In this document: in pieces, positions 31,086 to 48,693 of the stretch | Position numbering within the stretch: position 1 is the first letter of the stretch | How the letters are laid out: each line of letters opens with the position of its first letter | Virus record (IMG/VR): IMGVR_UViG_3300002026_002465 | Coordinates: 64,001 to 128,000 of that record | Length of the DNA stretch: 64,000 nt | From: a virus | Reading direction: 5' to 3' (one strand) | Notes under the pieces: generated by a model | The model's database searches: none | The model's input: only the letters and a program-made list of their open reading frames with translations | What the model was told of the DNA's origin: nothing | Program-made: the position numbers and the translations under genes

Positions 31086-32186
31086 TTACGAATAGAATAT
31101 TTTTCTATCTCCTGATAAATACTTTAATTTATAGTTTTCTATCATTGAATCTTGAAGAAAATAAAATTGATTTAAATGATAATACTCGTTCAGTTCAATT
31201 TGTCTATAAAATGTTTTTAATCCTTGCCATGAATTAGAGTGTTTACCTAGACCTAAAACAGAATTTAAATATCCATTAATATTATTAGGCTTATCGAAAT
31301 AAATAAAGTTAAAATTAAAATCATAATTTTTTCTTAAAAAATTATAAAAATTTTCATTTGTTATATCTTTTTCATAATCATATTTATTGTTTTCTAATAT
31401 ATTTTTTAGTAATTTATCAATATAATTTATTTTTACATCTCTAAGTTTATTTTCAGCAAAATCATTATGAAATGTTGTTGTGAGTTTACTATATACAGTT
31501 ATTTTAGGAATATCAAGATTAGATAAGAAATTAAAATCATTTATCAATGTTTGATTGCTTTGATCTGAAAGCCCAGCCATTAAATCAACATTAATAATAT
31601 GCTTTTTATTTTTAAATTTATTAATAATATGTCTTAGTCTTTTTTCAATTATTTCTATTGACGGGTTAAATCTGTCTTCTGACGTTAAAGGTTGTGGACT
31701 TAATGATTGAATTCCTATACTTACTCTATTTATAAAATTAGAATCTGCTAAAAAATCTATTTTATCTTCAGTAAGAGTAGAGATACTTGTTTCAAAACTA
31801 TATATATTGTTGTTCATATCTAAATTAAAATTAGATTTTATCATATCAAACAATCTTTTCATTTGATATGGCTGGAGTAGTGATGCAGTCCCTCCACCTA
31901 TATAAAGAGACTTAAATACTTGATTCTTAAATAATGGTGAATACTCTTTCATTTGTAGTTCTAAATTATTTAAATAATCATTTATTTGTTCTTCATTTTT
32001 ATATAAATCTACAAAATAAATACAATATTTACATTGATGTAAACAAAATGGAATTTTTATAAATAATGATAAATAATCATATTCATTTTTTGTTTCAAAA
32101 TAATCATTCCATAATTCATATATTTGTTCTTTTGAAAGAGAATTTTCTTCTGAATCTTGTTGATAATCTGTTTTTAATTCTAACAC
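31086..32186 (-). CDS. HemN-like (class C) radical SAM enzyme
   Basis: FIKIPFCLHQCKYC (CxxxCxxC), YIGGGTAS, RVSIGIQS, INVDLMAGL. Confidence 0.85.
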   Translation of the reverse strand: MLELKTDYQQDSEENSLSKEQIYELWNDYFETKNEYDYLSLFIKIPFCLHQCKYCIYFVDLYKNEEQINDYLNNLELQMKEYSPLFKNQVFKSLYIGGGTASLLQPYQMKRLFDMIKSNFNLDMNNNIYSFETSISTLTEDKIDFLADSNFINRVSIGIQSLSPQPLTSEDRFNPSIEIIEKRLRHIINKFKNKKHIINVDLMAGLSDQSNQTLINDFNFLSNLDIPKITVYSKLTTTFHNDFAENKLRDVKINYIDKLLKNILENNKYDYEKDITNENFYNFLRKNYDFNFNFIYFDKPNNINGYLNSVLGLGKHSNSWQGLKTFYRQIELNEYYHLNQFYFLQDSMIENYKLKYLSGDRKIFYS

Positions 32187-33100
32187 TTAAATTCCTTGAG
32201 TGCATTATCTATATCATTTTCAATAAAAAAATTAGATTTATAATTTCTATATTTTTCTATTCCTGAATTACAATCCAATACTGAATAATTATATTTTTTA
32301 TCTAAAACTTCTTTCATTATTTCATATACTAATCCTTCATCATAAACATGATGAAGTGCATCTTTATATACCAAAGCATTTGGATATATTTTTTCTATAG
32401 AATCTTTATTATAATCAGTATATTGCACTTCTATTAAATTTAAATGGGATATACCTATTTTATCAAATATTTCAAGATGTGATAACAATAAATCCTTGTG
32501 CAAAGGCCATGATGGTTCTTCTATTGTTATAATAAATCCCATTTCTTTTGCATCATACAAATAGTCAAAAACTTTTTTAGAAAAACCACTTGCACTTATG
32601 TGCACTCTAAGTTCTTGAATATTCATATTCTTTAATATTAATAAATTTTCTTTATTTAATAACAATCCATTAGTATAAATATGTTTGTAAATATTGTAAT
32701 TATTATTTGATTCTATTTTTGAAAGTAATTTTGAAAATTCTTCATATTCATTTAAATATAATAATGACTCTCCCCATGTATTAAATGATACTGTTTTTGG
32801 TTTGAAATTTAAATCTAAACTCTTTTTATATAATTCTTTAATTTCAGTTTTTGGAATATCATTGAAATAATCAAGCATTTCATTGTCAATATTATTATAA
32901 TAACACATTGGACATTTTAATTGACATTTAGTTCCAACATGAATAGCAAATGATTGATTTGTTTTAAAACAAGATATACATCCTGGAGATATTTTTCCTA
33001 TGTGAATGCAATCACCATTTACATGCTTTTCAAGTTCTGGTATAGATTTTTGAGATTCTAATTTTTTCTGGAAAATATCACTATAAGATACTATTTTCAT
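32180..33100 (-). CDS. radical SAM enzyme (GKISPGCxxC subtype, COG2108-like)
   Basis: GKISPGCISCF plus CQLKCPMC; HIYTNG; start at ATG 33100 coupled ATGA to the upstream stop. Confidence 0.85.
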   Translation of the reverse strand: MKIVSYSDIFQKKLESQKSIPELEKHVNGDCIHIGKISPGCISCFKTNQSFAIHVGTKCQLKCPMCYYNNIDNEMLDYFNDIPKTEIKELYKKSLDLNFKPKTVSFNTWGESLLYLNEYEEFSKLLSKIESNNNYNIYKHIYTNGLLLNKENLLILKNMNIQELRVHISASGFSKKVFDYLYDAKEMGFIITIEEPSWPLHKDLLLSHLEIFDKIGISHLNLIEVQYTDYNKDSIEKIYPNALVYKDALHHVYDEGLVYEIMKEVLDKKYNYSVLDCNSGIEKYRNYKSNFFIENDIDNALKEFKC

Positions 33101-34629
33101 GTTTTTTCGCCACAAATAACTAAAGCACTAAACTCACCAACATTGAATATATTTTCTATATTATATTTTTCTTTCGTTTTGATTAATCTATCTTCTATAA
33201 AATTTTTGTCAAAAATAACACCATTGTTAAAAACATTATAAATTAATATTATTTTTCCAGAAAATTTATTTTGTTTATATAATTTATATCTAAAATCAAA
33301 TTCATCTAGTGTGTTGTCAATGCCTGCATTAAGAATATAATCAAATTTATGATGATCAATAATACAGTCTTCATCATTGATTGTAAAATTAATTTTCGAT
33401 CCATTAAAAGTTTTTAAAATATTTGCTATTTTAATAGAAGTTTCATCAATATCAAATCCATGTATTAATATATTTGGAAACACTTCTTCTAGAATAAATG
33501 AATTTGTGCCATTATTACAGCAAATATCTAGAATTTTACTTCCAGATTTAATATCTAATTGTTTAAGCAATAATTTTCTAGCACTGTAAGATTGAATATC
33601 ACAGTCAAATAATATTTCATTGTTTAAAATAATAGGTGAAACAAGTTTATTATTCTCTTTTGAATATTTTAATAAATCTAAAATATCTTTTTTATATTCT
33701 ATTGGATAAATATCTAATTCATTTTGATAAAGATCAACATATTCTTTCCAAACACCTAAACATTTATTGTTATATACACATCTTAAACATTCTTGAGGTT
33801 TTTTAAAGTCATATTTAACCATCTCTTTAAAGTCACCATCAGGTTCATAGCCTGGATTGTCATTTACAAGTTCTATACATCTATCATATGATGAATATGA
33901 TTGATATTCTTCTAATGATCCTTCAATTTGATGTTTAAAACCTTGTAAATAACATGGAGGGAAGGCACTTGTATATATTTTATAATAATATTTACTTAAA
34001 ATATTATGAACAATATCTTTTAAGTCTGAATATTTTGGAACAACATTGTAAAAATCAGCCAATGCATTTCCCATAGCATGAGGAAATGTTAAACTTGAAT
34101 TATCAACATTTAACATATGAAAGAAATCAAATGTTTTTTCAAGTGATAATAAATTATATTTTGATATAACCGTTTGTGTTTGTATTTTAAATTTATCAGA
34201 TTTTAAATTAATTAGATTTGATAGTCCATTCAATGTATCATCCCATGAACCTTCTTTTTGACAAATAAAATCGTGTTCTACTTTATCAAAAGAATGTATA
34301 GCTACAAGAAAAGAATCTACATATTTTACAAGTTCTTTTGTAAGATTTATATCTTTAAGTCCAGTGCCATTTGTTTGTAGATCTATAGTGCAACTTGGAT
34401 TTATCTTTTTTATATATTGAACCATATCAACTAAATCTGGCCTTATTGTTGGTTCACCCCCTGTGATAGTGAATTTATCACATGTAGAGTATTTGTCTAT
34501 TATATTTTTCAATTCATCAAGAGAAAAATCAGGTCTATGTGTATATTGTTTTTTATCTGAAACAACACAATGAACACAATTATGATTACAATTCCAGCCC
34601 ACTTTTAAATCAATATGACTTTCTAACAT
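33097..34629 (-). CDS. radical SAM enzyme with Cys-rich auxiliary motif fused to a class I methyltransferase-like domain
   Basis: CNHNCVHC, TGGEPT, LQTNGT, KPQECLRCVYNNKCLGVWKEY; C-terminal GSKILDICCNNGT...IHGFDIDE (SAM-binding motifs I/II-like). Confidence 0.85.
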   Translation of the reverse strand: MLESHIDLKVGWNCNHNCVHCVVSDKKQYTHRPDFSLDELKNIIDKYSTCDKFTITGGEPTIRPDLVDMVQYIKKINPSCTIDLQTNGTGLKDINLTKELVKYVDSFLVAIHSFDKVEHDFICQKEGSWDDTLNGLSNLINLKSDKFKIQTQTVISKYNLLSLEKTFDFFHMLNVDNSSLTFPHAMGNALADFYNVVPKYSDLKDIVHNILSKYYYKIYTSAFPPCYLQGFKHQIEGSLEEYQSYSSYDRCIELVNDNPGYEPDGDFKEMVKYDFKKPQECLRCVYNNKCLGVWKEYVDLYQNELDIYPIEYKKDILDLLKYSKENNKLVSPIILNNEILFDCDIQSYSARKLLLKQLDIKSGSKILDICCNNGTNSFILEEVFPNILIHGFDIDETSIKIANILKTFNGSKINFTINDEDCIIDHHKFDYILNAGIDNTLDEFDFRYKLYKQNKFSGKIILIYNVFNNGVIFDKNFIEDRLIKTKEKYNIENIFNVGEFSALVICGEKT

Positions 34630-34639
34630 TAATTAATCC

Positions 34640-35101
34640 TTATAATGACTTTACGTATTCTATTGCTTTTTCCATATTAAAAAACATTACATCTTTTTTT
34701 GTATATTCATACATGTTATCTTCAATATAATTAAATTCTGGTATTAATGCTTTTTCTTTTTTAATGTCGAAAGTATCATCCTGTTTAGGATTACTTTTAT
34801 CAAAATACTCTTTAAATTTATTAAAATTATTAACTTCAATTGTTTTTATTGAACTATCAAATATAAGTTTCCACCTTGTTTTTACCATTTCAAATTTATC
34901 ATCATCTTTCAGAAAGTTTTTTACTGTCATAATGTCATATACTGTTGGACAGTCTTGTTGTATTATTATTATTTTATTTAAAAGCTCTTTGTAATTATCG
35001 TTTATTACAATATCAATATGACTTTTTATAACTTCATCAATACCATAGCCTATATTATTAATTAAATAAGCGTTTTTTATTTCCTCTCCATTATAATTCA
35101 T
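34640..35101 (-). CDS. hypothetical accessory protein (paralog of 43251-43709)
   Basis: GGAGG SD; shares IDx(V/I)IxDN(Y/F)xE and FD....EVx..xKxK segments with 43251-43709. Confidence 0.75.
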   Translation of the reverse strand: MNYNGEEIKNAYLINNIGYGIDEVIKSHIDIVINDNYKELLNKIIIIQQDCPTVYDIMTVKNFLKDDDKFEMVKTRWKLIFDSSIKTIEVNNFNKFKEYFDKSNPKQDDTFDIKKEKALIPEFNYIEDNMYEYTKKDVMFFNMEKAIEYVKSL

Positions 35102-35999
35102 TGTTTACCTCCCAATTTAAAAATACATTTGTTACAGGTTTTAAAAATTTATCATCATAAATATAATAATAAGATTTATGAATTCCAAGACAATATTCAA
35201 AATGTGTGCATTTTTCACAATTAAAATGAAAAACATTTTCTTTAAATAAATCTCTTATTTGTTTTATTCCATTTTCTTTTTTCAAAGAAGCTAAAATCCA
35301 ATTATATTCTATAGAATATTTAACAAGATTTTTTAATTCACATATAGGAATATATGCTATTCTATATTTACTTTTATCTCTTGAATTACTAATTATAGTA
35401 TTTAATATATTATATACATCACCATATAAAGGTAAAAATTTTTGTATTTCACTTATATCAGCATTAAATGGATTATATACTTTAAAAAAAATATCAGCAT
35501 TTGGCCATTTTGAACTTACATAAGAATTCCATTCCTCCATAGAATCTAAATTTATTTTATTTACAACAACTCCAATTGTTATTTCTTTAAATTTATAATT
35601 ATAAATTTTATCTATTAATTGTATTTTTTCTTTATAAAATACTCTATTACAAAGTTTATCATGTATTTCTTCAATGTGACTATCTAAAGATGTAGATATT
35701 GATATCTTAGATATGTCTCTTTTAATAAACTCATCAAAAAAAGCATTATCATTAAATTTTAATAAATTACTTATCACAAGTATATTATCAAACTTATTTA
35801 GACAAATATCTAATATTTCAAAAAAATCTGGTCTTATAGTTGGTTCACCACCTGTAATAGTTATATTACTACTTTCACATTTAATAATATCTATTTGTTT
35901 TAAAATATCATTTGAAGATGGAATTGGAGAGTTTTTTTCTCCACAGAACTCACAATCTAAATTGCATATTCCACCCAAATTAATATCATTAACAATCAT
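35091..35999 (-). CDS. radical SAM enzyme with C-terminal CxxC-x4/5-C motif
   Basis: CNLDCEFC, TGGEPTIRPD, YIPIC, CEKCTHFEYCLGIHKSY; immediately downstream of the putative substrate gene. Confidence 0.85.
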   Translation of the reverse strand: MIVNDINLGGICNLDCEFCGEKNSPIPSSNDILKQIDIIKCESSNITITGGEPTIRPDFFEILDICLNKFDNILVISNLLKFNDNAFFDEFIKRDISKISISTSLDSHIEEIHDKLCNRVFYKEKIQLIDKIYNYKFKEITIGVVVNKINLDSMEEWNSYVSSKWPNADIFFKVYNPFNADISEIQKFLPLYGDVYNILNTIISNSRDKSKYRIAYIPICELKNLVKYSIEYNWILASLKKENGIKQIRDLFKENVFHFNCEKCTHFEYCLGIHKSYYYIYDDKFLKPVTNVFLNWEVNNEL

Positions 36000-36658
36000 A
36001 GATTATCTTGATATGTTGCTGGATTAGTGAATACATTTAAATATGTTAAATTAGCATATGCTGTTGCTGTGTTTAAATGACTACTTCCTGTATTAGAATG
36101 ATTTCCATGATTTCTATGGCATGTATAACTTCTAGTATTTGAACTATGTGAGTTGCTATGATTTTGATAACCATTAAGATATGATGGTGCAGGACTATCT
36201 GTATAGTTTGAATAATTAGCATAGGCAGCTACTTGTTTAAGTCTTGTAGCAATTTCATCTATTTTTGATTTTGTAATTACTTCTCCTTCTACAACAGGCC
36301 CAACTGATCCTAACATCCCCATTTCTGACATTTCATCTAATAACCCTGAATATGTTCCATTTATTACACCACTTTGTTCATTAAGATGTTCTTGTTCAAT
36401 TATTTCACTATCTGCAACTTCAGTATCTGAAACACGAGTATATGTTGGAGATCCTGCATACCCAAACTGTATTTTTACAGCTTTTGCATGTTGTCTAAGC
36501 TGTTTTAATGTTTCACCATCTAATTTTGTATCTGCTTTTACTGTTCCATCAGCATTAAAATATGTTGAGTTAAACGGTAAATCTAATGGCCATTTTTTAG
36601 CGGAGTCATCAATTTCAGTAGCTGCATTTGAATAATTTGCGTAATTTACATATCCCAT
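35996..36658 (-). CDS. putative radical-SAM substrate (RiPP-precursor-like), 220 aa, with (Y/H)-X-N repeat tail
   Basis: AAGGAG SD then ATG 36658 (MGYVNYANYSN...). C-terminal YANYSNYTD..YLNGYQNHSNSHSS..HRNHGNHSN..HLN..YAN..YLN.FTN..YQD. It is the only low-complexity peptide-like gene amid 11 radical SAM genes. Substrate role is inference. Confidence 0.75.
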   Translation of the reverse strand: MGYVNYANYSNAATEIDDSAKKWPLDLPFNSTYFNADGTVKADTKLDGETLKQLRQHAKAVKIQFGYAGSPTYTRVSDTEVADSEIIEQEHLNEQSGVINGTYSGLLDEMSEMGMLGSVGPVVEGEVITKSKIDEIATRLKQVAAYANYSNYTDSPAPSYLNGYQNHSNSHSSNTRSYTCHRNHGNHSNTGSSHLNTATAYANLTYLNVFTNPATYQDNL

Positions 36659-36660
36659 AA

Positions 36661-37605
36661 CTATATCTCCTTTTTTAAGAATCCTAGGCATGGACCTGGA
36701 CACTCTTTGAATAAGAAACAACATTTTTTACATTCTTCAGGTAAACCTTGTGTCGAATATGCTAACCTTTTTCTAAGAAAAAGTTCATTTTCAACTGTAT
36801 TCAATAAAGAATGTTTATCCATATCAACTCTTATGTTTTCTCCTGGATAACAATATTGAACTTCTGATGGATTCAAAATATCAACTGGAATTCCATTTTC
36901 ACAACCATATTTGAACCCTTCAAGCCATTCTAATAAAAATGTTTTTACAGTATTATCTTTGATCATACACGGATAAATTCCGCAATCTAGATTAAATTTT
37001 ACTTTATTTTTTATACCCCAATTAACAAAATCAATAATTCTATCAATATATTCATAATTATTAAAAAAATACATTTTACTATTAGTATCTTTTGGGTTTG
37101 GAAATGGTAAACTTATTCTTGCTCTACTAAACACATCACCTAATTTTTCCTTATACTTATTTAAATTATCTTCATAATATTTAAAATCATAATCAAGATT
37201 GATTGTATACCCTAATCTTATATTAGCATTAGTGTATTTAGATATTAATAGCATGTTTTCAGATGTTAAATCAAACTGTTGTTGAGATACTTCAGAAACA
37301 TTTATTAAAAATCCAAGATTTTTTTCACTTATAAAATCTATAATACTGTTTAAAATTTTTTCTCCAAAAATAAAATTGCTTATTAAAGTAATTTTATTTG
37401 GTAGTGTTTTCAAATAAGATAGTATTTCAACAAAATTTGAATTATTTGTTGGTTCACCACCTAAAAGAGATATGTTATTATTTACAGTCATTTTTTTTAC
37501 AATGTTTTTTACATCATCTAATGACATTTCACTTTTATCTAGAACATCTTTAGCAAAGCAAAAAGAGCATCCTTTATTACATGAAGTAGTTAAGATAAGA
37601 TTCAT
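36661..37605 (-). CDS. radical SAM enzyme with SPASM/twitch-like Cys motifs
   Basis: CNKGCSFC, LLGGEPT, LDCGIYPC, YCYP, CKKCCFLFKECPGPC. Confidence 0.85.
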   Translation of the reverse strand: MNLILTTSCNKGCSFCFAKDVLDKSEMSLDDVKNIVKKMTVNNNISLLGGEPTNNSNFVEILSYLKTLPNKITLISNFIFGEKILNSIIDFISEKNLGFLINVSEVSQQQFDLTSENMLLISKYTNANIRLGYTINLDYDFKYYEDNLNKYKEKLGDVFSRARISLPFPNPKDTNSKMYFFNNYEYIDRIIDFVNWGIKNKVKFNLDCGIYPCMIKDNTVKTFLLEWLEGFKYGCENGIPVDILNPSEVQYCYPGENIRVDMDKHSLLNTVENELFLRKRLAYSTQGLPEECKKCCFLFKECPGPCLGFLKKEI

Positions 37606-38800
37606 TTTTTATTTCATCCTTTAATAGTTCTGATATTTTTAGTCTATTTTTATTAAAAAACTCTGATAACCCTTTATTAAACTCACAAGTTGCATCATCA
37701 ATAATACCTTTTCCATATTTTTGATATGAAAAGCTTAAGCATCCATAATCGCAAAATGCTTGTGAAGAACAAAGATTACATTTTCTTTCTATAACTGCAT
37801 CTGCTTTTGATCTATGAAATTGCCACATTTTATGTGTATGTATTAATTCACCAACATCTTTAGACGTTACATTGCCTGATGATACATTATTACTTTTTTC
37901 AGAATTTCTACCACAAAAAAGAGTTGTTCCATCTGGTTCAACTTCTAATATTCCATTTCCAGCACCACAATATCTCGTATAGCATATATCTCCAACACTT
38001 ATTTCTTGACCAAAACTAATGTTTTCAATATATTTTTTCATTTTATTATATAGAGTTTCTTCTTTAAAGCCCTTATTGTCAAACATAAAATTAATTATTT
38101 TTATTGATGCTTCTAAATTTTCTTGTGCTGTTAACTCAAATTCACTTCCAGTATTTGCAACATCAACAGCCCTATTAATTTTAATAGAATTAAAACCCAT
38201 TGATTGTATCATTCTTAAATCATCAACTATTGTTAAATGATTTTGTTTGTGTAAAATAGATAATAAACCTGGTTGTAATCCATAACCTCTTAATTTTATT
38301 ATATTTTCTAATAATTTACCATTTGCATTCCTATTAGAATCAGAAATTCCAAACCCATCAAAACTCACTCCAGGACTTATATTATATCTTCTAAATATTC
38401 CAATCCATTCATCGTCAATTAAAGTGCCATTTGTTTGCAAAGATATTGCAAGCATTTTTCCATGCTCTCTTGCAAGTTGTGTTGCAATTTTACAAAATGC
38501 AGAAAACTTTTCTTTACCTATTTTTAGTGCTTCCCCTCCATGAAAAACTAAACTTAGTGGATTCCATTTTTGGAGATTTTCAGTTTTAGTATCAGAATTT
38601 AAAGCATCTATTAAACTTTGTTGAGATTCTATATTACCGTGAGATGTTTCTAAAAACCACCTTCTAATAGTATTCTCAAACACCTCATATGACATTGATT
38701 CTTCACTATAGTCATCTTTATGAAACACATAACAATATGAGCACCTTAAATTACACCCTCTTGTAACTTTTAGAATTACTTGTCTAGTATTTTGAAACAT
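37577..38800 (-). CDS. radical SAM/SPASM peptide-maturase-like enzyme
   Basis: KVTRGCNLRCSYC, FHGGE, LQTNGTLID, CYTRYCGAG, VEPDG..LFC, CNLCSSQAFCDYGC...C (full SPASM spacing; anSME/3-CyFE-like). Confidence 0.9.
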   Translation of the reverse strand: MFQNTRQVILKVTRGCNLRCSYCYVFHKDDYSEESMSYEVFENTIRRWFLETSHGNIESQQSLIDALNSDTKTENLQKWNPLSLVFHGGEALKIGKEKFSAFCKIATQLAREHGKMLAISLQTNGTLIDDEWIGIFRRYNISPGVSFDGFGISDSNRNANGKLLENIIKLRGYGLQPGLLSILHKQNHLTIVDDLRMIQSMGFNSIKINRAVDVANTGSEFELTAQENLEASIKIINFMFDNKGFKEETLYNKMKKYIENISFGQEISVGDICYTRYCGAGNGILEVEPDGTTLFCGRNSEKSNNVSSGNVTSKDVGELIHTHKMWQFHRSKADAVIERKCNLCSSQAFCDYGCLSFSYQKYGKGIIDDATCEFNKGLSEFFNKNRLKISELLKDEIKNESYLNYFM

Positions 38801-38801
38801 T

Positions 38802-39089
38802 TTATTCTCCTATTGTTTTATGCTCATTAAAACCAGATTCACCTATTGGATTTTCAGACTGAATTTTTTCAGATTCAGAAGTAAAATTTTCAATATGACC
38901 TATTAACCTATCAAAACAAACGTCACAATACAAAGATGTTGTTTTTCTACACATACTAGCATCCATTTCACTTTGATTTGTATTTGGGTCTTTAATCCAT
39001 GTTTTAAAATCTATAACTATTTCATGATAATATCTATTTTTATAGATGTTTTTACCACAACCGTCACATTCAACTACTGAGTATTTCAT
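38802..39089 (-). CDS. small CxxC...CxxC metal-binding protein (paralog of 45975-46199)
   Basis: VECDGCGKNI...IVIDFK...LYCDVCFDR; AGGAG SD. Confidence 0.75.
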   Translation of the reverse strand: MKYSVVECDGCGKNIYKNRYYHEIVIDFKTWIKDPNTNQSEMDASMCRKTTSLYCDVCFDRLIGHIENFTSESEKIQSENPIGESGFNEHKTIGE

Positions 39090-40123
39090 AATTTCTCCTT
39101 TGTGTATTCATTAAATTCATCTTCTAATATTTTAATTCCAACCATTATAGAGCAAAAAACATCTCTTGATTCTTTAAACGCTGCATAACATCCTGTTCTA
39201 CAAAAATCTTTTGCTTTACAATCTTCACATGTTTTATCATAAAAATCATTTGATTTAATTTTATCATAATTTGTAACATTAAATTTCATATTAGGAAAAT
39301 CATTAAGATTTAAATATATTTTTTTCTTATCATATTCTAGACCACAATGGGATATTTCACCAGATGGAAAAACTGAAAAAGATAGATGTTTATCAAGACA
39401 GTATTGCTTATTTTTAGTTATAAAATTTAAAAAATCTAAACTGCCAAACTCCAATGCTGTTTTAGCAAATTGTTTTAATAGTGTTTGAACAAAATTCTTT
39501 GCATCTTTTTTAGGTGAAAAGAAATCTATTGAAGTTGAGTGTTCTAATTTTAATGAGTCAAGAAACTTTTTATCTTCTAAAAAAGATCCAGCATTATTTT
39601 CTGATATTGTCCTATTAATAAAAACTTTATTTGGAAATATAGATGCAAACGTCATTAGATTGTTTATTGTTTTATTAAATGATCCTAATCCTCTAACCTT
39701 ATCATGAGTGATTTCACTACTATCTAATGATATGCTTATTTCACTATACATTGCTCCCATAAATTCAATTTGTTCTTTACTATAATCTAAAGTTAAATTT
39801 GTAACAAGAGATAATTCACAGTTTGGTATAGACTTTAATATTAATGTATAATTATAAAAATATTGCCAGTCTAATGTGGGCTCGCCACCATTTATTAAAA
39901 TATGTAATGTATTATCAGGGTGTCTATACATATTAATCATTTGTGTAAAATTATAAAAATTTTCTATTGAAAGCTTTTCTTTTGTATTTTTATGAAATTT
40001 ATTTTCATTATTTTTATGCACACAATAATTACAATTTAAATTACAATCAAAAGATGGAAATATAGTAACATCATCTATTCTTATTTCATTTTTTATAGGA
40101 TTATCAACCTCAAAATAGCTCAT
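39086..40123 (-). CDS. radical SAM/SPASM enzyme
   Basis: CNLNCNYC, INGGEPT, ISLDS...HDKVRG.GSF, CLDK...VFPSGEISHC, CEDCKAKDFCRTGCYA...C. Confidence 0.9.
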   Translation of the reverse strand: MSYFEVDNPIKNEIRIDDVTIFPSFDCNLNCNYCVHKNNENKFHKNTKEKLSIENFYNFTQMINMYRHPDNTLHILINGGEPTLDWQYFYNYTLILKSIPNCELSLVTNLTLDYSKEQIEFMGAMYSEISISLDSSEITHDKVRGLGSFNKTINNLMTFASIFPNKVFINRTISENNAGSFLEDKKFLDSLKLEHSTSIDFFSPKKDAKNFVQTLLKQFAKTALEFGSLDFLNFITKNKQYCLDKHLSFSVFPSGEISHCGLEYDKKKIYLNLNDFPNMKFNVTNYDKIKSNDFYDKTCEDCKAKDFCRTGCYAAFKESRDVFCSIMVGIKILEDEFNEYTKEKL

Positions 40124-41058
40124 TTTTTCTCCTTATCAACCATATTTTTAAAATCATTTTCATCATCAAGAACCTCATTTCTATTTACAATATATCTTGC
40201 TCTAACTGTATCGGAGTTACAATCAAGAACTGAAAATTTATAATTTTTATTTATTACCTCTTCCATTATATCATATACAAGACCTTCATCATATAGATGA
40301 TAGTTTAGATTTTTATACATTCTTCCTTCTGGATAAATAGAATTTACTTTTTGAATATTCATTGGAGTTATATCTATTTCATCTAAATTTAAATGTTTGA
40401 CCCCAATAGAATCAAAAAGTTTAATTGCTTCAAACAACTTATCTCTATTGAGCATCCATGATGGTTCTTCTACTGTTACTCTAAATCCATTTTTTGCTGC
40501 ATGTTCCATGTTATTATATACTTTAATTGAAAAATCACTTGCACTTATATGAAATCTTATTTCTTCAATATCTAAATCTTTTAATATTTGAGTGTTATTC
40601 ATATCATATAAAATACCTGTAGTGTATATTCTTTTATGAATATTAATATTTCTTTTTGTTTCAATCTGTTTGATAATTTTTGAGGTTGATAAATAATGTT
40701 CTAAATATAAAAAAGGCTCTCCAATTGAATTATAACATATATTTGATGGAGAGTAATTCTCATCAAAAAGTTTTGAATAATAAAATTCATTTGTATTTAT
40801 AATATCTTTCTCTATTGATTTACTTTCATCAGTATTATTGTGTAATGTTGTGTAATAACACATTGGACATTGAAATGGACATTTATTTCCAATAAAAATA
40901 CTTTTTCTACATGCCTTTTCAGTAAAACATCCTTCACATCCTGGAGATATTTTGCCTATATGAGAAGCAAAACCATTTGCATGAAGTATAAGATTTGGTA
41001 TGTTTTTTTGTCTTAAATATTTTTCATTTAATATAGTTCTGAAATCAACTAAAATCAT
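40120..41058 (-). CDS. radical SAM enzyme (GKISPGCxxC subtype; paralog of 32180-33100)
   Basis: GKISPGCEGCF, CPFQCPMCYY, EIRFHISASDFS, VEEPSW, LYDEGLVY all shared with 32180-33100. Confidence 0.85.
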   Translation of the reverse strand: MILVDFRTILNEKYLRQKNIPNLILHANGFASHIGKISPGCEGCFTEKACRKSIFIGNKCPFQCPMCYYTTLHNNTDESKSIEKDIINTNEFYYSKLFDENYSPSNICYNSIGEPFLYLEHYLSTSKIIKQIETKRNINIHKRIYTTGILYDMNNTQILKDLDIEEIRFHISASDFSIKVYNNMEHAAKNGFRVTVEEPSWMLNRDKLFEAIKLFDSIGVKHLNLDEIDITPMNIQKVNSIYPEGRMYKNLNYHLYDEGLVYDIMEEVINKNYKFSVLDCNSDTVRARYIVNRNEVLDDENDFKNMVDKEKK

Positions 41059-41849
41059 GGTATCCTTTTAAAAACACTTGTATTCATTTCAAGAAAATTA
41101 AATTGTGTGCTTCCTTCATAAGAAGGATTTAACAATCTATCAACATCACTGCTCCAATAAAATATTGAATTTGTTCTATTTTTTGAAAAATAGAGATTGC
41201 TCATTATATCTAAAGTTTCATAGCTGGATATATACCAGTTTATATTTTTATAAATCTTATTATCATAAAATTTATTTTGATTATTTACTTCAACATCTCT
41301 TAGGATGATATAATTAAATTTATCAATAATACTTTCTAATAATGTATAATCTTCTTGAGAATATTTAATAAGAGGAATTTCTAATACTGAATTAGATACA
41401 ATATATTTATAATTAAAATCACTCTGAAAAGTATATCTAGTTTCATTTAAGTTAGGATAAATACCATCACTATTAACATATCCAAATGTGTATGTAGATT
41501 CATTTAATAAATCATTATATTCATTTATATAATTAAATGTTTTTATATCAGCATAACCATTTACTGATACAATATGAGGAGATGATTTATTAATTCTAAC
41601 ATAATTAGAAAGATTTTCTAATCTCCACGTTATATGGTCTGATAATTTAGAATTATAATAATTTGCATAATATTGCACTTCTAATAAATATTGAATATAT
41701 TCAGACTTTGGTATAGAGAAAAAGTCTATAAAAGAATAAGGAATATTACCTTTATAAATACAATACCCTGAGTAGTCAGAAATATATGGATATTTTAATA
41801 TAGTCTTATATTTATTTATAAATTCATCTTGAAAATTAATTTTAATCAT
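41055..41849 (-). CDS. degenerate (cluster-less) paralog of the GKISPGC-type radical SAM enzymes
   Basis: N-terminus (YCIYKGNIP vs CIHIGKISP) and central segments (SDF..K, V.EIP, LRDVEV..N) align by eye with 40120/32180, but no CxxxCxxC. Confidence 0.5.
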   Translation of the reverse strand: MIKINFQDEFINKYKTILKYPYISDYSGYCIYKGNIPYSFIDFFSIPKSEYIQYLLEVQYYANYYNSKLSDHITWRLENLSNYVRINKSSPHIVSVNGYADIKTFNYINEYNDLLNESTYTFGYVNSDGIYPNLNETRYTFQSDFNYKYIVSNSVLEIPLIKYSQEDYTLLESIIDKFNYIILRDVEVNNQNKFYDNKIYKNINWYISSYETLDIMSNLYFSKNRTNSIFYWSSDVDRLLNPSYEGSTQFNFLEMNTSVFKRIP

Positions 41850-41868
41850 TGTTATATTAACTATGCTT

Positions 41869-43185
41869 TTATTTTGAATTAATTATATTCAAAAACTCAT
41901 TAGTTTTATCTAATAATTGCGTATTAAAGTATTCTCCTTTTGATTGAATATTAATATTCAAATTTTTTTTATATTCAAATGTACCCTCATATTCTTTTAA
42001 ATATAGAAATGATTCGAATATATATAAATACAAACCACTTATATTAGGAATATTAGAAATATATTTAAAAAACTCAGTAATTATTTCAGAATCTGATTTA
42101 TAATCATTTATATCAAATTGTTTAAAATATACAGGCTCTTTATTTTTATAAACTTCAATATATTGAAAATCTTGACCTATTTTAGAATAAATATCCACAA
42201 TGTTTTTCATTCTACCAGGTTTAATCTTATTTTCTATTTTAGAACCTATACCTAAAATAGAAAATGTTGGTTCAGATTTTAATATATCATCTTGACTTTT
42301 ATACTGTGGATATATCTTATTTATAAATAAATTTAAAGGTATTGTATTTTTTATTAAATTTACCTTATTAAACTCTCGTAAAATATTAAAAATTTTTTCA
42401 TAAGACAAAGTTTCATCTTTAAATTTAAAAAGTCCAGATGGATAATATCCAAATTTTTTACAAAATTCTAAAATAAATATACAATATGTTTTATATAAAT
42501 CTTCTGATGGATATAATTCCTTATTATTTTTATCTGAAAAACTATAATCAATTGCTAAATTAATTTCATCTACACCCATGGAAGCAACATTAAACATATC
42601 ATAAATCATTTTTTCTACATGATCTTTTTCTTTCCAAAAGATTATAAAGTCGGTTAAAACATATATATTTTGTTTTTTAAAATCTGAAATAATTTTAGGA
42701 ATATTCTCATAATTTTTATATATCCTATTTTGCTTTTTTAAATATTCTTTATCAAAAGTCTGTATACAAAGAATAATAGAGTTAAAGTTGTATTCGCCAA
42801 GAAGTAACGATTGTTCTTCTATATAAGCAGACGGATGAATTTCCATTAGTTTTGATTCTATTTGTTTAAAATTTGGAATTTTTTCAAAAACCATTCTCAT
42901 GTCATCTATAGACATAATATTAGCCGTTCCGCCACCAAAACAATATGTTTCAATTTCTGAATTCGCAATTATATTAGAATAAAAATCAATTTGAGATATT
43001 AAATATGTAATATAATCTTGATATTTAGTACTTTCTTCATAATTTTGAGATATTATTGAACCATGAAAAGGACAATATAAGCAATTAGTGAAGCAAAATG
43101 GATTATGCACATAAACTCTTACAGGAGTGTTATTAAACTCCCATAAATCTAAAATAGATTCTTTTAATATTTCTTGTAGTTTCAT
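41869..43185 (-). CDS. HemN-like (class C) radical SAM enzyme
   Basis: VYVHNPFCFTNCLYC, CFGGGTA, MEIHP, ILCIQTF, ILGIGS. Confidence 0.85.
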   Translation of the reverse strand: MKLQEILKESILDLWEFNNTPVRVYVHNPFCFTNCLYCPFHGSIISQNYEESTKYQDYITYLISQIDFYSNIIANSEIETYCFGGGTANIMSIDDMRMVFEKIPNFKQIESKLMEIHPSAYIEEQSLLLGEYNFNSIILCIQTFDKEYLKKQNRIYKNYENIPKIISDFKKQNIYVLTDFIIFWKEKDHVEKMIYDMFNVASMGVDEINLAIDYSFSDKNNKELYPSEDLYKTYCIFILEFCKKFGYYPSGLFKFKDETLSYEKIFNILREFNKVNLIKNTIPLNLFINKIYPQYKSQDDILKSEPTFSILGIGSKIENKIKPGRMKNIVDIYSKIGQDFQYIEVYKNKEPVYFKQFDINDYKSDSEIITEFFKYISNIPNISGLYLYIFESFLYLKEYEGTFEYKKNLNINIQSKGEYFNTQLLDKTNEFLNIINSK

Positions 43186-43194
43186 TATAAGAAA

Positions 43195-43220
43195 TATGCT
43201 TTTTCAAATGAAAAAGCATA
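43195..43220. promoter_or_regulatory. perfect 12-bp inverted repeat in the divergent promoter of the radical SAM island
   Basis: TATGCTTTTTCA-AA-TGAAAAAGCATA in the 65-bp gap between divergent starts 43185(-) and 43251(+). Confidence 0.6.
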
Positions 43221-43250
43221 AATTTATGTTTTTTTTCATAAGATAATAAT

Positions 43251-43709
43251 ATGATAAAAATAACAACTATTGATAATATATATGAAGTGCTGCAAGATAC
43301 TACAAGTGTTGAAGAAAGATGTGAAATTGCTATAAAATTAATTGATACTATTATTAAAGATAATTTCAATGAGTATTATATAATTTTTTTAGATAATTAT
43401 AACGTTCCAGTTCAGTGGAGTGATTTTGAGAATTTTTGTATAAAAGAAAATTTAGATTTTGATAAATATAAAAAGTTGACTAATCAATGTTTCGATAAAG
43501 CAACATTATATTTAGAAGTTGTTGATCTAGAAAAAATAAAAATCAACTACCCAAAGGATAAATTTCCAAAAGATGTAAATAACTACACTCCTTATGGATA
43601 TAGTAACTATCCAAATAGATTCAGAATTTATAATAGAGACATCGCCATGGATCTTATTAAAAACTACTCTCTACAAGAACTAGAAAAGTATAGTCATGAT
43701 TTATCATAA
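43251..43709 (+). CDS. hypothetical accessory protein (paralog of 34640-35101)
   Basis: 152 aa vs 153 aa; shared segments by eye; first gene of the rightward operon. Confidence 0.75.
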   Translation: MIKITTIDNIYEVLQDTTSVEERCEIAIKLIDTIIKDNFNEYYIIFLDNYNVPVQWSDFENFCIKENLDFDKYKKLTNQCFDKATLYLEVVDLEKIKINYPKDKFPKDVNNYTPYGYSNYPNRFRIYNRDIAMDLIKNYSLQELEKYSHDLS

Positions 43710-43746
43710 GTAAGGCATATTTTAGTAGTTAGTAATAGAGGTAAAA

Positions 43747-44718
43747 ATGCTTAAATGTTTAGATCTTGAAACGGAAAACACCAATGATTATTGGGGTTCA
43801 ATAATTATTTATGGGCACCAAAAATGTATGAATACTTGTTTGTTTTGTTCAGGTAAAAACGAATCAATTGATGATGATACTATAAAATATAAAAAAGCAA
43901 TTTATGATGCTGATTATTTAATAAGTAGTGGTGTAAATAAAATAGAAATATCTGGTGGAGATCCAGGTGAATTTAGTATGATTGTTGATGTTGTGTCTTA
44001 TTTAAAAACTAAAGGTATTAAAACAATTCAATTATCAACACACGGAAGAACTCTTATTAATGAAAATTTTGTAAAAAAATTAAAGGATGCAGGTGTTACT
44101 TTGTTTAAAATACCATTATATGGTAGCACACAAGAAATACATAATAAAAGTGTCCAGGTTGATAATTCAATAGATAATGCTTTTTCAGACACAATTACAG
44201 GTATTAAAAATTGTAATAAACATGGCATGAGTATAATAGGATATATTTTATTAAATCAATATAATAAAAATGATATTACAAATATAGTAAGATTATATTT
44301 AAGCATCTCAAATTATATTTATAAAATAATAATAGGAATAACATTTATTTCAACTGTTGAATATAGTTATACAAGAGATTGGTTTTTACCAATAAAAGAT
44401 ATGAAACCATATCTTGAAGATATATTGATTGAATTTTCTAAAAATAATATAAATTTTGAGATGATTGATATTCCTTATTGTGCTATTGGTAAGTATTCTG
44501 AAAATATAGATAATAGACTTATTTTTCCAAATCTTGGAAATCATAAAGTAGAAGAACAAAATAGATCAACAATTTCAGATTTTATTCCTCATTATAGAAT
44601 TAAATCATATTTTAATGAATGTAATTCTTGTAACTTAAAAAATCTATGTAGTGGTATTCCAATCAATGAAATTAAAATGTTTGGAATATATGGACTTGAA
44701 GGAGTTGGAAGTGTTTAG
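43747..44718 (+). CDS. radical SAM enzyme with C-terminal CxxC-x5-C motif
   Basis: CMNTCLFC, ISGGDPG, LSTHGR, DIPYC, CNSCNLKNLCSGI; GAGG SD. Confidence 0.85.
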   Translation: MLKCLDLETENTNDYWGSIIIYGHQKCMNTCLFCSGKNESIDDDTIKYKKAIYDADYLISSGVNKIEISGGDPGEFSMIVDVVSYLKTKGIKTIQLSTHGRTLINENFVKKLKDAGVTLFKIPLYGSTQEIHNKSVQVDNSIDNAFSDTITGIKNCNKHGMSIIGYILLNQYNKNDITNIVRLYLSISNYIYKIIIGITFISTVEYSYTRDWFLPIKDMKPYLEDILIEFSKNNINFEMIDIPYCAIGKYSENIDNRLIFPNLGNHKVEEQNRSTISDFIPHYRIKSYFNECNSCNLKNLCSGIPINEIKMFGIYGLEGVGSV

Positions 44719-45973
44719 ATTTACAGATTTAATTATATTTAGATTAACAAGGGGGTGTAATCTAAATTGTAAATATTGTTTTATGCAAAATAAAGAAGAA
44801 TATAAAAATGAAAAAATAGATTTTGAACTTTTTAAAAAAATAATAGATAGAATTATAGAACAAAGACTAATAAATTCAAAACATACACAACTATCACTTG
44901 TTTTTCATGGTGGAGAATTTTTAACTATAGGGAAAAAAAGCCTGTATGAAATTTTAGAATATACAACTGCCCAAATGAATCTAAATAATATAGATTGTGA
45001 ATTAGGTTGTCAAACAAATGGGGTATTATTAGATGATGAAATTGCAAAAATATTAAGTAAATTTAGTGTAGGAATAGGACTTAGTTTTGATGGTGTAAAT
45101 GGTTCTAATGACTTGCGTGATATTAAACAGGAAATATTTGAAAGCAAGTTTGAAATATTAAAGAAAAATAAAAACAATTTTGGTTTTCTTATCATTGCAA
45201 ACAAATCTAATATTGATAAAATCCAAGATTCACAAGATTATATTAAAAAGTTAAATAGAACAAATGGATATAAAATAAATTATTCTGAAGATATGATAAA
45301 TCCTGGTGAAAACAGTGAAATAGAAGTCTCTGGTAAAGAAATGTTTGAGAAAGTTTTTAAGCCAGAATTATTACGTATTTTAAAAGGAGAACAACCTGAA
45401 GAACATAACACAAAAGAACTTTTAACAAAAGCAATAATAGATATTTTATCATATCATGAAAATGGCACAAAATCAGGTTGTGGCACTAAATGGTGTGGTG
45501 CTGGTATCTCAATGATAGCAATAGAGCCTGATGGTGAAATGGATTATTGTGATAGATATTCCAAAAAATTTTCTGAAACATATATTCAACATGCTTTAGA
45601 TTATGATTTTTTAGGTATATATCAATTAAATAAAATGATACAATACAATAAAATGAAAGCTAAATTATATAATAATTATGAGTGTGATACTTGTTATGCT
45701 GATTATATATGTAATCATGGTTGTGAATCATTTTATTATTCTAAATATGGTGAATATGGAATTGATACTAGACTAGTGTGTGATCAGTATAAAATGTTTT
45801 ATAGTTTTGTTCTAGAAAATATTGTTGAATTTGTTAAAAAACGTGAAATTGTTTCATATGCAAATGATACTATAATTAAGATTAGACCAAACATTAATTA
45901 CTTATTTTTTTCTTATGGAATTGACTTGATAATAACAGATGATAAAAAAAGCATAATTATTAAAAGGACATAA
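44711..45973 (+). CDS. radical SAM/SPASM enzyme (paralog of 37577-38800)
   Basis: GTG 44711 after GGAG gives MFRFTDLIIFRLTRGCNLNCKYC, matching the paralog's MFQNTRQVILKVTRGC; FHGGE, CGTKWCGAG, IEPDG..YC, CDTCYADYICNHGC. Confidence 0.9.
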   Translation: MFRFTDLIIFRLTRGCNLNCKYCFMQNKEEYKNEKIDFELFKKIIDRIIEQRLINSKHTQLSLVFHGGEFLTIGKKSLYEILEYTTAQMNLNNIDCELGCQTNGVLLDDEIAKILSKFSVGIGLSFDGVNGSNDLRDIKQEIFESKFEILKKNKNNFGFLIIANKSNIDKIQDSQDYIKKLNRTNGYKINYSEDMINPGENSEIEVSGKEMFEKVFKPELLRILKGEQPEEHNTKELLTKAIIDILSYHENGTKSGCGTKWCGAGISMIAIEPDGEMDYCDRYSKKFSETYIQHALDYDFLGIYQLNKMIQYNKMKAKLYNNYECDTCYADYICNHGCESFYYSKYGEYGIDTRLVCDQYKMFYSFVLENIVEFVKKREIVSYANDTIIKIRPNINYLFFSYGIDLIITDDKKSIIIKRT

Positions 45974-45974
45974 C

Positions 45975-46199
45975 ATGAATAAAAATTATTGTACTAGATG
46001 TAAAAATGAAATTATAGATATGGCAATTATAGTTGATTTTAAAATAAGTGTTGGAAGAGTAAAAAATAGTGGAATATTTGAAAACATTCCAAATCTTGAA
46101 AACAACTCAAGAGAAGTTTTATGTGATGATTGTTTTAACAAGTTTTCACTTTTAATGGAAGGCTTAAATATAAAATACAATAAAAAAGTGGAGAATTAA
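45975..46199 (+). CDS. small CxxC...CxxC metal-binding protein (paralog of 38802-39089)
   Basis: NYCTRCKNEI...IIVDFK...VLCDDCFNKF; AAGGA SD. Confidence 0.75.
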   Translation: MNKNYCTRCKNEIIDMAIIVDFKISVGRVKNSGIFENIPNLENNSREVLCDDCFNKFSLLMEGLNIKYNKKVEN

Positions 46200-48660: not shown

Positions 48661-48693
48661 ATGGAAAAATATATTTTGATTAAGAGGTAAATA

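What the first reader, a model, noticed from the sequence alone, without database searches (positions are those of the whole stretch)
36230..36658. The substrate's 'leader' looks like a folded phage structural domain rather than a RiPP leader
Seen: about 145 aa precede the repeat tail, with two similar helical units (TKLDGETLKQLRQHAKAV; EGEVITKSKIDEIATRLKQV) and a related EIIEQEHLNE. Inference from memory: G-x-x-I-x-x-x-x-x-(N/D)-E-(I/L) repeats occur in phage tail-associated proteins. If so, the modified product is a virion appendage with cross-linked termini (enzymatic armouring or a receptor-binding tip), not a secreted peptide. This fits the absence of any protease or transporter gene in the island.
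Basis: inference. Interest (0 to 1): 0.7.

Follow-up and report, generated by a model that had tools for sequence, protein, structure and literature searches.

The report
Folded core of phage radical-SAM substrate
A large uncultured phage encodes a 220-residue protein whose conserved middle part looks like a small folded domain of unknown fold. Short tyrosine/histidine-x-asparagine motifs, probable targets of the 11 radical-SAM enzyme genes around it, sit on both sides, so it is more likely an enzyme-modified protein than a cleaved peptide precursor; nothing yet shows it is part of the virus particle.

Summary
The gene is real: window 35996-36658, minus strand, 220 aa, with a GGAGA ribosome-binding site. 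About 145 residues do precede the C-terminal aromatic-x-Asn array.

**Supported**
- The region is conserved in a small, unnamed, purely metagenomic family of 18 proteins.
- Insertions fall between the conserved helices.
- AlphaFold2 with 14 sequences gives pLDDT 70-87 for residues ~21-146. Both ends come out disordered.
- All 13 full-length aligned members also carry 2-4 triplets at the extreme N-terminus, so the domain is central and not a classical N-terminal leader.
- I found no match to NHLP or Nif11 leaders and no conserved Gly-Gly site.
- The 178-kb record has no C39 peptidase, ABC transporter or PqqD domain, and the protein has no signal peptide.

**Not supported**
- The two "similar helical units" are no more alike than chance (28% of shuffles score as high).
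- The G-x-x-I-x5-(N/D)-E-(I/L) motif occurs once here and in no tail protein of this phage.
- No phage structural family or fold matches.
- A related 388-kb phage lacks the gene. At the same place, behind its tail-fibre gene, it has a CXXX-repeat radical-SAM cassette.

The closest precedents are the radical-SAM-modified proteins HxsA and CrpA. The scan has noted similar phage cassettes on other DNA. Virion membership is untested.

The parts
35996..36658 (-). Gene of the 220-aa substrate protein (P0001), stop codon included. Its stop overlaps the ATG of the next radical-SAM gene (35091-35999).
   Evidence: the start agrees with homologues
36666..36670 (-). Shine-Dalgarno GGAGA, 7 nt upstream of the ATG at 36658
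   Evidence: read directly from the sequence
36626..36652 (-). N-terminal arm, residues 3-11: three back-to-back triplets YVN-YAN-YSN; pLDDT below 50
   Evidence: 2-4 such triplets lie in the first 30 residues of all 13 full-length aligned members
36221..36610 (-). Central conserved domain, residues ~17-146. It carries the motifs KKWPLxLP(F/W), G-x-x-L-x-x-LRQHAKA, GLLD and ITKxKIxxIA. Net charge is -9.
   Evidence: alignment A2, conservation profile, AlphaFold2 pLDDT 70-87, composition
36467..36517 (-).
36323..36343 (-). Predicted helix 2, residues 106-112 (GLLDEMSE)
36221..36271 (-).
35999..36223 (-). C-terminal arm, residues 146-220: 14 (Y/H/F)-x-(N/D) triplets, mostly pLDDT below 40. It ends in the conserved motif NP(A/G)xYQNxL, where pLDDT rises to 61.
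36661..37605 (-). Radical-SAM gene immediately upstream (314 aa). Its product is 29% identical to the 317-aa radical-SAM protein in the syntenic cassette of the related phage.
37577..38800 (-). Radical SAM/SPASM gene (407 aa). Best NCBIfam matches are the cyclophane-forming maturases DynA, YhhB, XyeB and FxsB, all far below their curated cut-offs.
31086..45973 (.). The whole island: 11 radical-SAM genes (9 on the minus strand, 2 on the plus strand), P0001 and four small ORFs with no family match. No peptidase or transporter family was detected.

Best explanation
P0001 is a protein-sized radical-SAM substrate, not a leader-plus-core peptide.

**Architecture.** A conserved, mostly helical domain of about 130 residues (17-146) with no known fold sits in the middle. 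Two disordered arms flank it: residues 2-11 with 3 triplets, and residues 146-220 with 14 triplets and a conserved C-terminal NPxxYQNxL.

**Inferred mechanism.** The arms are modified at their (Y/H/F)-x-(N/D) triplets by the island's radical SAM/SPASM enzymes, most plausibly as triceptide-type aromatic-to-C-beta cyclophanes plus further chemistry. The central domain does the job a leader does, docking the enzymes, as the N-terminal domain of CrpA helps CrpC. Unlike a leader, it stays in the product, which is therefore a modified ~24-kDa protein, as with HxsA and CrpA.

**Shown:** the architecture, its conservation, the predicted fold confidence, and the absence of cleavage or export signatures.

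**Inferred:** the chemistry, the docking role, retention of the domain, and where the product ends up.
For: - A family of 18 unnamed metagenomic proteins of 219-322 aa shares the whole architecture.
- The middle region is about as conserved as the arms: mean BLOSUM pair score 1.29, against 1.04-2.5 for the arm segments. Its indels lie between the helices.
- AlphaFold2 with 14 sequences gives pLDDT 70-87 for ~21-146 and pTM 0.57, with residues 1-16 and 149-209 below 50.
- Triplets lie upstream of the domain in 13 of 13 full-length members, so removing a leader would discard conserved motifs.
- P0001 has no Pfam, NCBIfam or PHROG family, NHLP and Nif11 included.
- The residues at the junction are variable with no Gly-Gly, and no member has a signal peptide or membrane segment.
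- The 178-kb record has no Peptidase_C39, ABC_tran or PqqD match, and the first two ring in control genomes.
- The neighbouring enzymes hit cyclophane-forming radical SAM/SPASM and HxsB/HxsC/HxsC4 models at E 1e-14 to 1e-34.
- Published precedents for radical-SAM-modified proteins with a folded domain: HxsA (PMC13128918) and CrpA, whose N-terminal domain aids enzyme engagement (PMC13692751).
- In a related phage the syntenic radical-SAM target P0027 also has an N-terminal domain of about 115 residues ahead of its repeats.
Against: - The fold confidence rests on only 14 sequences. A 4-sequence run gave pLDDT 33, and three of the five models in the 14-sequence run averaged below 51.
- Only about a third of the domain is in regular secondary structure.
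- No known fold matches, so the model cannot be cross-checked.
- An acidic region (net charge -9) ending in an amphipathic helix right before the main core is also what a long leader looks like.
- A host protease could still cut it.
- No modification, enzyme-substrate contact or product has been observed.
- The genomic context of every homologue could not be retrieved.
Confidence: 0.55

Rival explanations
1. Virion appendage. The modified protein is built into the particle near the tail fibres or baseplate. The central domain is the attachment or oligomerisation module, and the cross-linked arms act as armoured or receptor-contacting tips.
For: - The island lies between a tail-fibre gene (28340-31024; PHROG tail-fibre hits) and baseplate wedge genes (48298-50967).
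- In related phage G001 a different radical-SAM target (P0027, CXXX repeats) lies 90 nt downstream of the homologous fibre gene on the same strand.
- The ESM Atlas model of P0027's N-terminal domain resembles Ig/FN3 domains of phage proteins, TM 0.75-0.83 (a lead only).
- The held genome has no export or cleavage genes.
Against: - P0001 has no PHROG family and no tblastn match in 50,697 phage records.
- It has no structural match in BFVD or PDB.
- The recalled tail-protein motif is absent from this phage's own tail proteins.
- No longer protein carries the domain.
- G001 keeps the surrounding fibre and baseplate genes but lacks P0001, so it is not a core structural part.
- In this phage the operon runs opposite to the structural genes.
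- Gene position alone is weak evidence.
Confidence: 0.22
2. Classical long leader. Residues 1-145 only recruit the enzymes and are removed by a host or unrecognised protease. The stapled C-terminal peptide of about 75 residues is released at lysis as a toxin, signal or metal binder.
For: - The main triplet array is C-terminal to the region.
- The region is acidic and ends in a conserved amphipathic helix abutting the core.
- Long protein-like leaders exist (NHLP, Nif11; established knowledge).
- Phage lysis makes a transporter unnecessary (inference).
- Three island ORFs (153, 95 and 264 aa) have no known family and could hide a peptidase.
Against: - Conserved triplets at the extreme N-terminus in all full-length members would be thrown away.
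- There is no conserved cleavage motif at the junction.
- There is no NHLP or Nif11 similarity.
- The held genome has no C39 peptidase, ABC transporter or PqqD/RRE.
- The whole 130-residue region is conserved, not only a short recognition helix.
Confidence: 0.18
3. Intracellular or envelope-acting effector. Like bacterial HxsA, the matured protein acts inside the infected cell or at its envelope. It could exclude superinfecting phages, counter a host defence or bind metal or DNA, with the central domain as the functional or targeting module.
For: - Four of the island's radical-SAM proteins have HxsC or HxsC4 as their best NCBIfam match, at E 2e-16 to 2e-34.
- HxsA is a radical-SAM-matured protein effector that blocks phage DNA entry (PMC13128918).
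- The gene is accessory, being absent from the relative G001.
Against: - The family has no signal peptide.
- P0001 has no peptidoglycan-binding or other known domain.
- No HxsD (TIGR03976) homologue is found among the small ORFs even at E up to 1.
- The triplets are Y/H-x-N, not basic H-x-S repeats, and the arms are uncharged.
- HxsA matches (TIGR03979) are absent.
Confidence: 0.15

Closest known systems
Triceptide precursors and their 3-residue cyclophane-forming radical-SAM enzymes (3-CyFEs; defined in PMC11499958)
   Same: Dense aromatic-X-X3 triplets (Y/H/F at position 1). The neighbouring radical SAM/SPASM genes have cyclophane-forming maturases (DynA, YhhB, XyeB, FxsB, GrrM) as their best NCBIfam matches.
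   Different: - The protein is 220 aa, with 17 triplets in the two arms, at both ends of a conserved ~130-residue domain.
- Position 3 is mainly Asn.
- It is phage-encoded, with 11 radical-SAM genes and no protease or transporter.
- The enzymes score far below every curated cut-off (for example 108 against 450 bits).
- No cross-link has been shown.
HxsA of the bacterial HXS antiphage system (HxsA/B/C/D; PMC13128918)
   Same: A protein of about 200 aa, not a peptide, which combines a short-repeat array modified by radical-SAM enzymes with a folded functional domain. HxsC/HxsC4/HxsB are among the best matches of several island enzymes.
   Different: - P0001 has no signal peptide and no peptidoglycan-binding domain.
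- The repeats are Y/H-x-N, not basic H-x-S.
- No HxsD homologue was found.
- P0001 has arrays at both termini.
- It is encoded by a phage, not by a defence island.
CrpA/CrpC of Methanococcus voltae (PMC13692751)
   Same: A ~29-kDa protein substrate with an N-terminal domain followed by a repeat region modified by a radical SAM/SPASM enzyme. The N-terminal domain contributes to enzyme engagement, and the product is a modified protein.
   Different: - CrpA carries Cys-based ranthionine thioethers, not aromatic-x-Asn triplets.
- CrpC has an RRE, whereas no PqqD/RRE is detectable here.
- It is archaeal, has one enzyme, and the sequences are unrelated.
CXXX-repeat radical-SAM target system (TIGR04115 maturase, TIGR04116 partner), as found in related phage G001 (L002 2770-7494)
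   Same: - It occupies the same genomic slot behind the homologous tail-fibre gene.
- The substrate has a non-repeat N-terminal region of about 115 residues followed by a long repeat array.
- It shares one homologous radical-SAM gene, 29% identical to window 36661-37605.
   Different: - The repeats are Cys-x-x-x, and there are only two radical-SAM genes.
- The N-terminal regions are not detectably homologous (hhalign probability 0.6%; BLASTP E 3.8).
- P0027's domain looks Ig/FN3-like in the Atlas model, whereas P0001's is helical.
NHLP and Nif11 long leader peptides
   Same: A long (over 70 aa), conserved, protein-like region ahead of a modified core.
   Different: - There is no sequence match in Pfam or NCBIfam.
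- There is no Gly-Gly site.
- There is no C39 peptidase or ABC exporter.
- Target motifs also lie upstream of the region.

Membership tests
Triceptide precursor / 3-CyFE system | Aromatic(1)-X2-X3 motifs in the substrate | tested here: met
   The two arms hold 17 (Y/H/F)-x-(N/D) triplets: 3 at the N-terminus and 14 in the tail. The tail count of 14 compares with 3.35 expected, and 0 of 20,000 shuffles reach it.
Triceptide precursor / 3-CyFE system | An adjacent radical SAM/SPASM enzyme belonging to a characterised cyclophane-synthase family | tested here: inconclusive
   DynA, YhhB, XyeB, FxsB and GrrM are the top hits for 37577-38800 and 44651-45973, at E 1e-14 to 6e-31. Scores of 50-108 bits fall far short of the 310-450 bit cut-offs.
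Triceptide precursor / 3-CyFE system | An aromatic-to-C-beta cross-link is actually formed (-2 Da per motif) | not testable with these tools
   Needs co-expression and mass spectrometry or NMR.
Triceptide precursor / 3-CyFE system | A short precursor with an N-terminal leader followed by the core | tested here: not met
   The protein is 220 aa, with motifs on both sides of a conserved ~130-residue domain.
HXS system effector HxsA | N-terminal signal peptide | tested here: not met
   The maximum 15-residue hydropathy in the first 25 residues is 0.17 or less in 18 family members.
HXS system effector HxsA | Peptidoglycan-binding domain and HxsA family match (TIGR03979) | tested here: not met
   P0001 has no Pfam hit at E up to 1 and no NCBIfam hit at E up to 0.01.
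HXS system effector HxsA | HxsD partner (TIGR03976) | tested here: not met
   The small island ORFs have no NCBIfam hit at E up to 1.
HXS system effector HxsA | HxsB/HxsC radical-SAM pair | tested here: inconclusive
   HxsC/HxsC4 are the best hits for 33097-34629, 35091-35999 and 43747-44718, but at 60-119 bits against cut-offs of 268-500.
NHLP / Nif11 leader peptides | Sequence match to the leader families | tested here: not met
   P0001, P0007 and P0012 have no Pfam hit at E up to 1, and P0001 has no NCBIfam hit.
NHLP / Nif11 leader peptides | Gly-Gly type cleavage site with a C39 peptidase/ABC exporter | tested here: not met
   The junction residues vary (AA, AV, AS, SQ, SK, KN and others). 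The 178-kb record has no PF03412 or PF00005 match, and both ring in control genomes. The record is only 74% complete.
Phage tail-fibre / tail-associated structural proteins | Sequence membership of a phage structural family | tested here: not met
   There is no PHROG hit at E up to 0.01, no tblastn hit in 50,697 phage records, and no longer protein contains the region.
Phage tail-fibre / tail-associated structural proteins | Fold shared with a known virion protein | tested here: inconclusive
   The best scores are Foldseek E 0.075 in BFVD, Foldseek E 0.69 in PDB and VIA-align Z 5.5, which is background level. The model itself is of only moderate confidence.
   The motif has one exact copy in P0001 and none in any tail or baseplate ORF of the genome. 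The internal repeat is not significant.
Phage tail-fibre / tail-associated structural proteins | Presence in purified virions | not testable with these tools
   The phage is uncultured and no proteome is available.
Radical-SAM-modified proteins with a folded docking domain (CrpA type) | A conserved non-repeat domain joined to a repeat array, next to radical SAM/SPASM genes | tested here: met
Radical-SAM-modified proteins with a folded docking domain (CrpA type) | Cys-based thioether motifs and an RRE on the enzyme | tested here: not met
   P0001 has one Cys, and the genome has no PqqD match.

The most novel reading that the evidence does not exclude
The mature product is a component of the virus particle. 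The orphan central domain would anchor it near the tail fibre or baseplate, and its two arms would be stapled into strings of cyclophane rings by the phage's own 11 radical-SAM enzymes. That would be enzymatic radical cross-linking of a virion protein, a kind of particle maturation not yet described. Related phages would swap the cassette (Y/H-x-N here, CXXX in G001) at the same fibre-adjacent slot.
Probability: 0.2. Interest if true: 0.9.

Novelty: new variant of a known kind. Interest (0 to 1): 0.55.

Why it matters
Radical-SAM peptide chemistry has been studied almost entirely on short, cleaved, exported peptides. The first cases of whole proteins matured this way, HxsA and CrpA, were published only in 2026.

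This family would add three things:
- a phage-encoded case;
- a new layout, with target motifs on both sides of a folded orphan domain;
- an unusually large enzyme set, 11 radical-SAM genes around the only evident substrate.

If the domain is the docking platform, it is a handle for reconstituting the pathway and for asking how many enzymes share one substrate. If the product is in the particle, it would mean that phages chemically staple structural or host-recognition parts. The domain also has no detectable relative in structure databases, so an experimental structure would be new.

Tried and rejected
**Searches and jobs that gave nothing usable**
- Homotrimer test of residues 17-150 (three copies, alignment A2): no answer, score 0.00 against a mark of 0.42. 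This counts neither for nor against oligomerisation.
- AlphaFold2 with the 4-sequence alignment gave pLDDT 33 and was uninformative.
The contigs of the homologues (up to 29 kb) could therefore not be read.
- Scans of IMG/VR, JGI metagenomes and GTDB genomes with A1, A2 and P0031 found no relatives. One call failed for lack of a conserved stretch.
- Relatives cannot be drawn for a virus record.
- No RNA holder is listed among sequencing runs. Four DNA runs from one microbial-mat study hold the region.
- The PDB sequence profile search found only one chance-level hit, a thioesterase at E 0.063.

**Hits rejected as spurious or as leads only**
- P0015 (a eukaryote-like repeat protein) and P0016 (a 2203-aa PKD-repeat protein) were rejected. 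Their hits are repeated weak matches, Pfam PKD models do not hit P0001, and the matched stretch is a predicted helix.
- I suspected by eye that P0001's domain resembles the N-terminal region of P0027. This is not supported.
- The ESM Atlas nearest clusters for residues 12-146 are unnamed viral proteins at 0.92-0.94, with a CXXX-target cluster at 0.80. These are leads only.
- Searches of cultured phages with the adjacent radical-SAM protein found nothing. P0027 gave only low-complexity hits in mycobacteriophages.

**Uninformative or untestable**
- T4-type late promoter TATAAATA: 32 matches against 21 expected in this AT-rich window, none placed informatively. Sigma-70 scans are at background.
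- A search for a T4-type prohead protease (PF03420) had no positive control and shows nothing. The idea that the (L/I)-x-E sites in the domain are cut by such a protease stays untested.

Full report
**What is there.** The finding's coordinates (36230-36658) are residues 1-143 of a 220-aa ORF on the minus strand (35996-36658). GGAGA lies 7 nt upstream of the ATG at 36658. All homologues begin at the equivalent Met, so the longer 242-aa reading is not needed. The stop overlaps the ATG of the next radical-SAM gene.

The gene sits in an island (31086-45973) with 11 ORFs that match the Radical_SAM Pfam family (ten above the gathering cut-off; 40120-41058 only weakly, E 0.001). Two of these have clear SPASM-type matches, one is fused to a methyltransferase domain, and two are HemN/ChuW-like. 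Upstream of the island is a tail-fibre gene (28340-31024; PHROG tail-fibre hits). Downstream are KDO-pathway genes and gp25-like and gp6-like baseplate wedge genes. The window is part of a 177,948-bp IMG/VR virus record estimated at 74% complete.

**Checking the observation.** About 145 residues do precede the repeat tail.
- The tail (146-220) holds 14 aromatic-x-(N/D) triplets against 3.35 expected; 0 of 20,000 shuffles reach 14.
- The quoted peptides are present, and AlphaFold2 places helices at 48-64 and 130-146.
- The claim that these units resemble one another fails. The best internal local alignment scores 26, against a shuffle mean of 23.9 (sd 4.6), and 28% of shuffles do as well.
- The remembered motif G-x-x-I-x5-(N/D)-E-(I/L) occurs once in P0001.
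- Among 161 ORFs of at least 100 aa in the genome it occurs only in P0001 and one unrelated ORF, and never in a tail or baseplate protein.
- This note did not weigh the fact that residues 3-11 are themselves three back-to-back triplets (YVN-YAN-YSN).

**The family.** A word-indexed search found three close relatives at 36-54% identity. An exhaustive phmmer run over 1.84 billion representatives found ten more, and a profile search found five further ones.
- All are 219-322 aa, apart from one fragment.
- All are unnamed, without Pfam domains, and come from metagenome assemblies.
- No fused or stand-alone form of the middle region turned up.
- Two long repeat proteins that scored weakly are spurious.

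The alignment (A2) shows one conserved layout:
- 2-4 (Y/H)-x-(N/D) triplets within the first 30 residues in all 13 full-length aligned members;
- a conserved region with KKWPLxLP(F/W), G-x-x-L-x-x-LRQHAKA, a (T)DPxY stretch, GLLD and ITKxKIxxIA;
- an invariant Y-x-N-Y-x-N start of the tail;
- usually a terminal NP(A/G)xYQNxL.

Insertions of 17-35 residues occur only between the conserved helices.

**Is the middle region folded?** With four sequences AlphaFold2 was uninformative, at pLDDT 33. With the 14-sequence alignment:
- residues ~21-146 reach pLDDT 70-87 and pTM is 0.57;
- residues 1-16 and 149-209 stay below 50;
- the last ten residues rise to 61.

The composition is that of a soluble acidic domain: GRAVY -0.39, 26% charged residues, net charge -9. 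Helices 1 and 3 have conserved hydrophobic positions at i, i+3/4, i+7 spacing. This supports a compact domain.

The support is moderate only. Three of the five models averaged below 51, and only about a third of the region is in regular secondary structure. No known fold matches: Foldseek against PDB gives a best E of 0.69, BFVD a best E of 0.075, and VIA-align over 48,161 chains a best Z of 5.5, which is background for helical models. The PDB sequence profile search gave nothing.

- The junction before the first tail triplet is variable, with no Gly-Gly.
- None of the 18 members has a signal peptide or hydrophobic segment.
- The 178-kb record has no Peptidase_C39, ABC_tran or PqqD/RRE match, and the searches ring in control genomes.
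- The conserved N-terminal triplets place the domain in the middle of the substrate. A leader cut would discard conserved target motifs.

I therefore read the region as a retained central domain.

Two papers from 2026 give precedent. HxsA is a 214-aa effector with H-x-S repeats and a peptidoglycan-binding domain, matured by HxsB, HxsC and HxsD (PMC13128918). CrpA is a 28.8-kDa protein whose N-terminal domain helps the radical SAM/SPASM enzyme CrpC engage it, and whose product is 'a modified protein' (PMC13692751). By analogy the domain probably docks the enzymes. That step is inferred, not shown.

**Structural or virion domain?** No direct test supports it.
- There is no PHROG family, no tblastn hit in 50,697 phage records and no fold match to viral models.
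- The remembered motif is absent from the tail proteins.

The only support is positional, and it gained one interesting parallel. A 388-kb phage, G001 (98% complete), has a gp6-like protein 71% identical to ours and keeps the flanking fibre, KDO and baseplate genes. It has no P0001 homologue. In the same slot, 90 nt behind the homologous fibre gene and on the same strand, it carries a CXXX-repeat radical-SAM cassette:
- a 309-aa target (P0027) with a non-repeat N-terminal region of about 115 residues;
- a 317-aa radical-SAM protein 29% identical to the one beside P0001;
- a TIGR04115-like maturase (249 bits);
- two TIGR04116-like partners.

The N-terminal regions of P0001 and P0027 are not detectably related. 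The Atlas model of P0027's region looks Ig/FN3-like (TM 0.75-0.83; a lead only). So the slot behind the fibre gene is a swap site for cassettes made of a folded domain, a repeat array and radical-SAM genes. That fits a particle-associated role, but it fits an accessory-gene hot spot equally well.

Notes from this scan on other DNA describe similar fibre-adjacent cassettes with Cys or Cys-His repeats. They are unchecked leads, and one related claim partly fell, so I do not count them as evidence.

**Chemistry.** The triplets fit the published definition of triceptide motifs, aromatic(1)-X2-X3 (PMC11499958). The SPASM enzymes at 37577-38800 and 44651-45973 have cyclophane-forming maturases as their best matches, and four others match HxsC/HxsC4 best. 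All score far below the curated cut-offs. Membership of any characterised enzyme family is therefore not established, and the cross-link is inferred.

**Verdict.** The region is a conserved, probably folded, retained central domain of an orphan fold. It is neither a classical leader nor demonstrably a phage structural module. Among known systems it is a new variant of the recently recognised radical-SAM-modified proteins.

Noticed in passing
L002:2770-7494 (IMGVR_UViG_3300025715_000009, 388 kb): A related jumbo phage carries a CXXX-repeat radical-SAM cassette directly behind the homologue of the window's tail-fibre gene. It comprises a 309-aa Cys-x-x-x repeat target (P0027), two unknown ORFs (172 and 186 aa), a 317-aa radical-SAM gene, a TIGR04115-like maturase and two TIGR04116-like small proteins. 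In the ESM Atlas model, the N-terminal ~110 residues of the target resemble Ig/FN3 domains of phage proteins.
   Followed up: partly
window 43195-43220: A perfect inverted repeat with 11-nt arms and a 4-nt loop (TATGCTTTTTC AAAT GAAAAAGCATA) fills most of the 65-nt gap between the two divergent radical-SAM operons. It could be an operator or a bidirectional hairpin.
   Followed up: no
window 46199-48270: A KDO-8-phosphate synthase (216 bits, just under the 242-bit cut-off), a CMP-KDO synthetase (KdsB, over the cut-off) and a transaldolase-like gene lie between the radical-SAM island and the baseplate wedge genes. The related phage G001 has them in the same order.
   Followed up: partly
window 33097-34629: A 510-aa fusion of an HxsC4-like radical-SAM domain (E 2e-34) with a class I SAM methyltransferase domain (residues ~350-445).
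   Followed up: no
window 35999-36028 (residues 211-220): The C-terminal motif NP(A/G)xYQNxL is conserved in most family members. It is the only part of the tail where pLDDT rises (61, against 23-37 before it). It may dock back on the central domain or be an enzyme recognition end.
   Followed up: partly
window 36224-36625 (residues 12-145): There are several (L/I)-x-E sites (IIE, LNE, LDE, IDE), partly conserved in close homologues. They resemble the cleavage motif of T4-type prohead proteases. No such protease could be confirmed or excluded, because the PF03420 search had no positive control.
   Followed up: partly
window 31086-32186 and 41869-43185: Two HemN/ChuW/HutW-like radical-SAM proteins sit at the two ends of the minus-strand operon. 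This class includes radical methyltransferases, which hints at chemistry beyond cyclophane formation.
   Followed up: no
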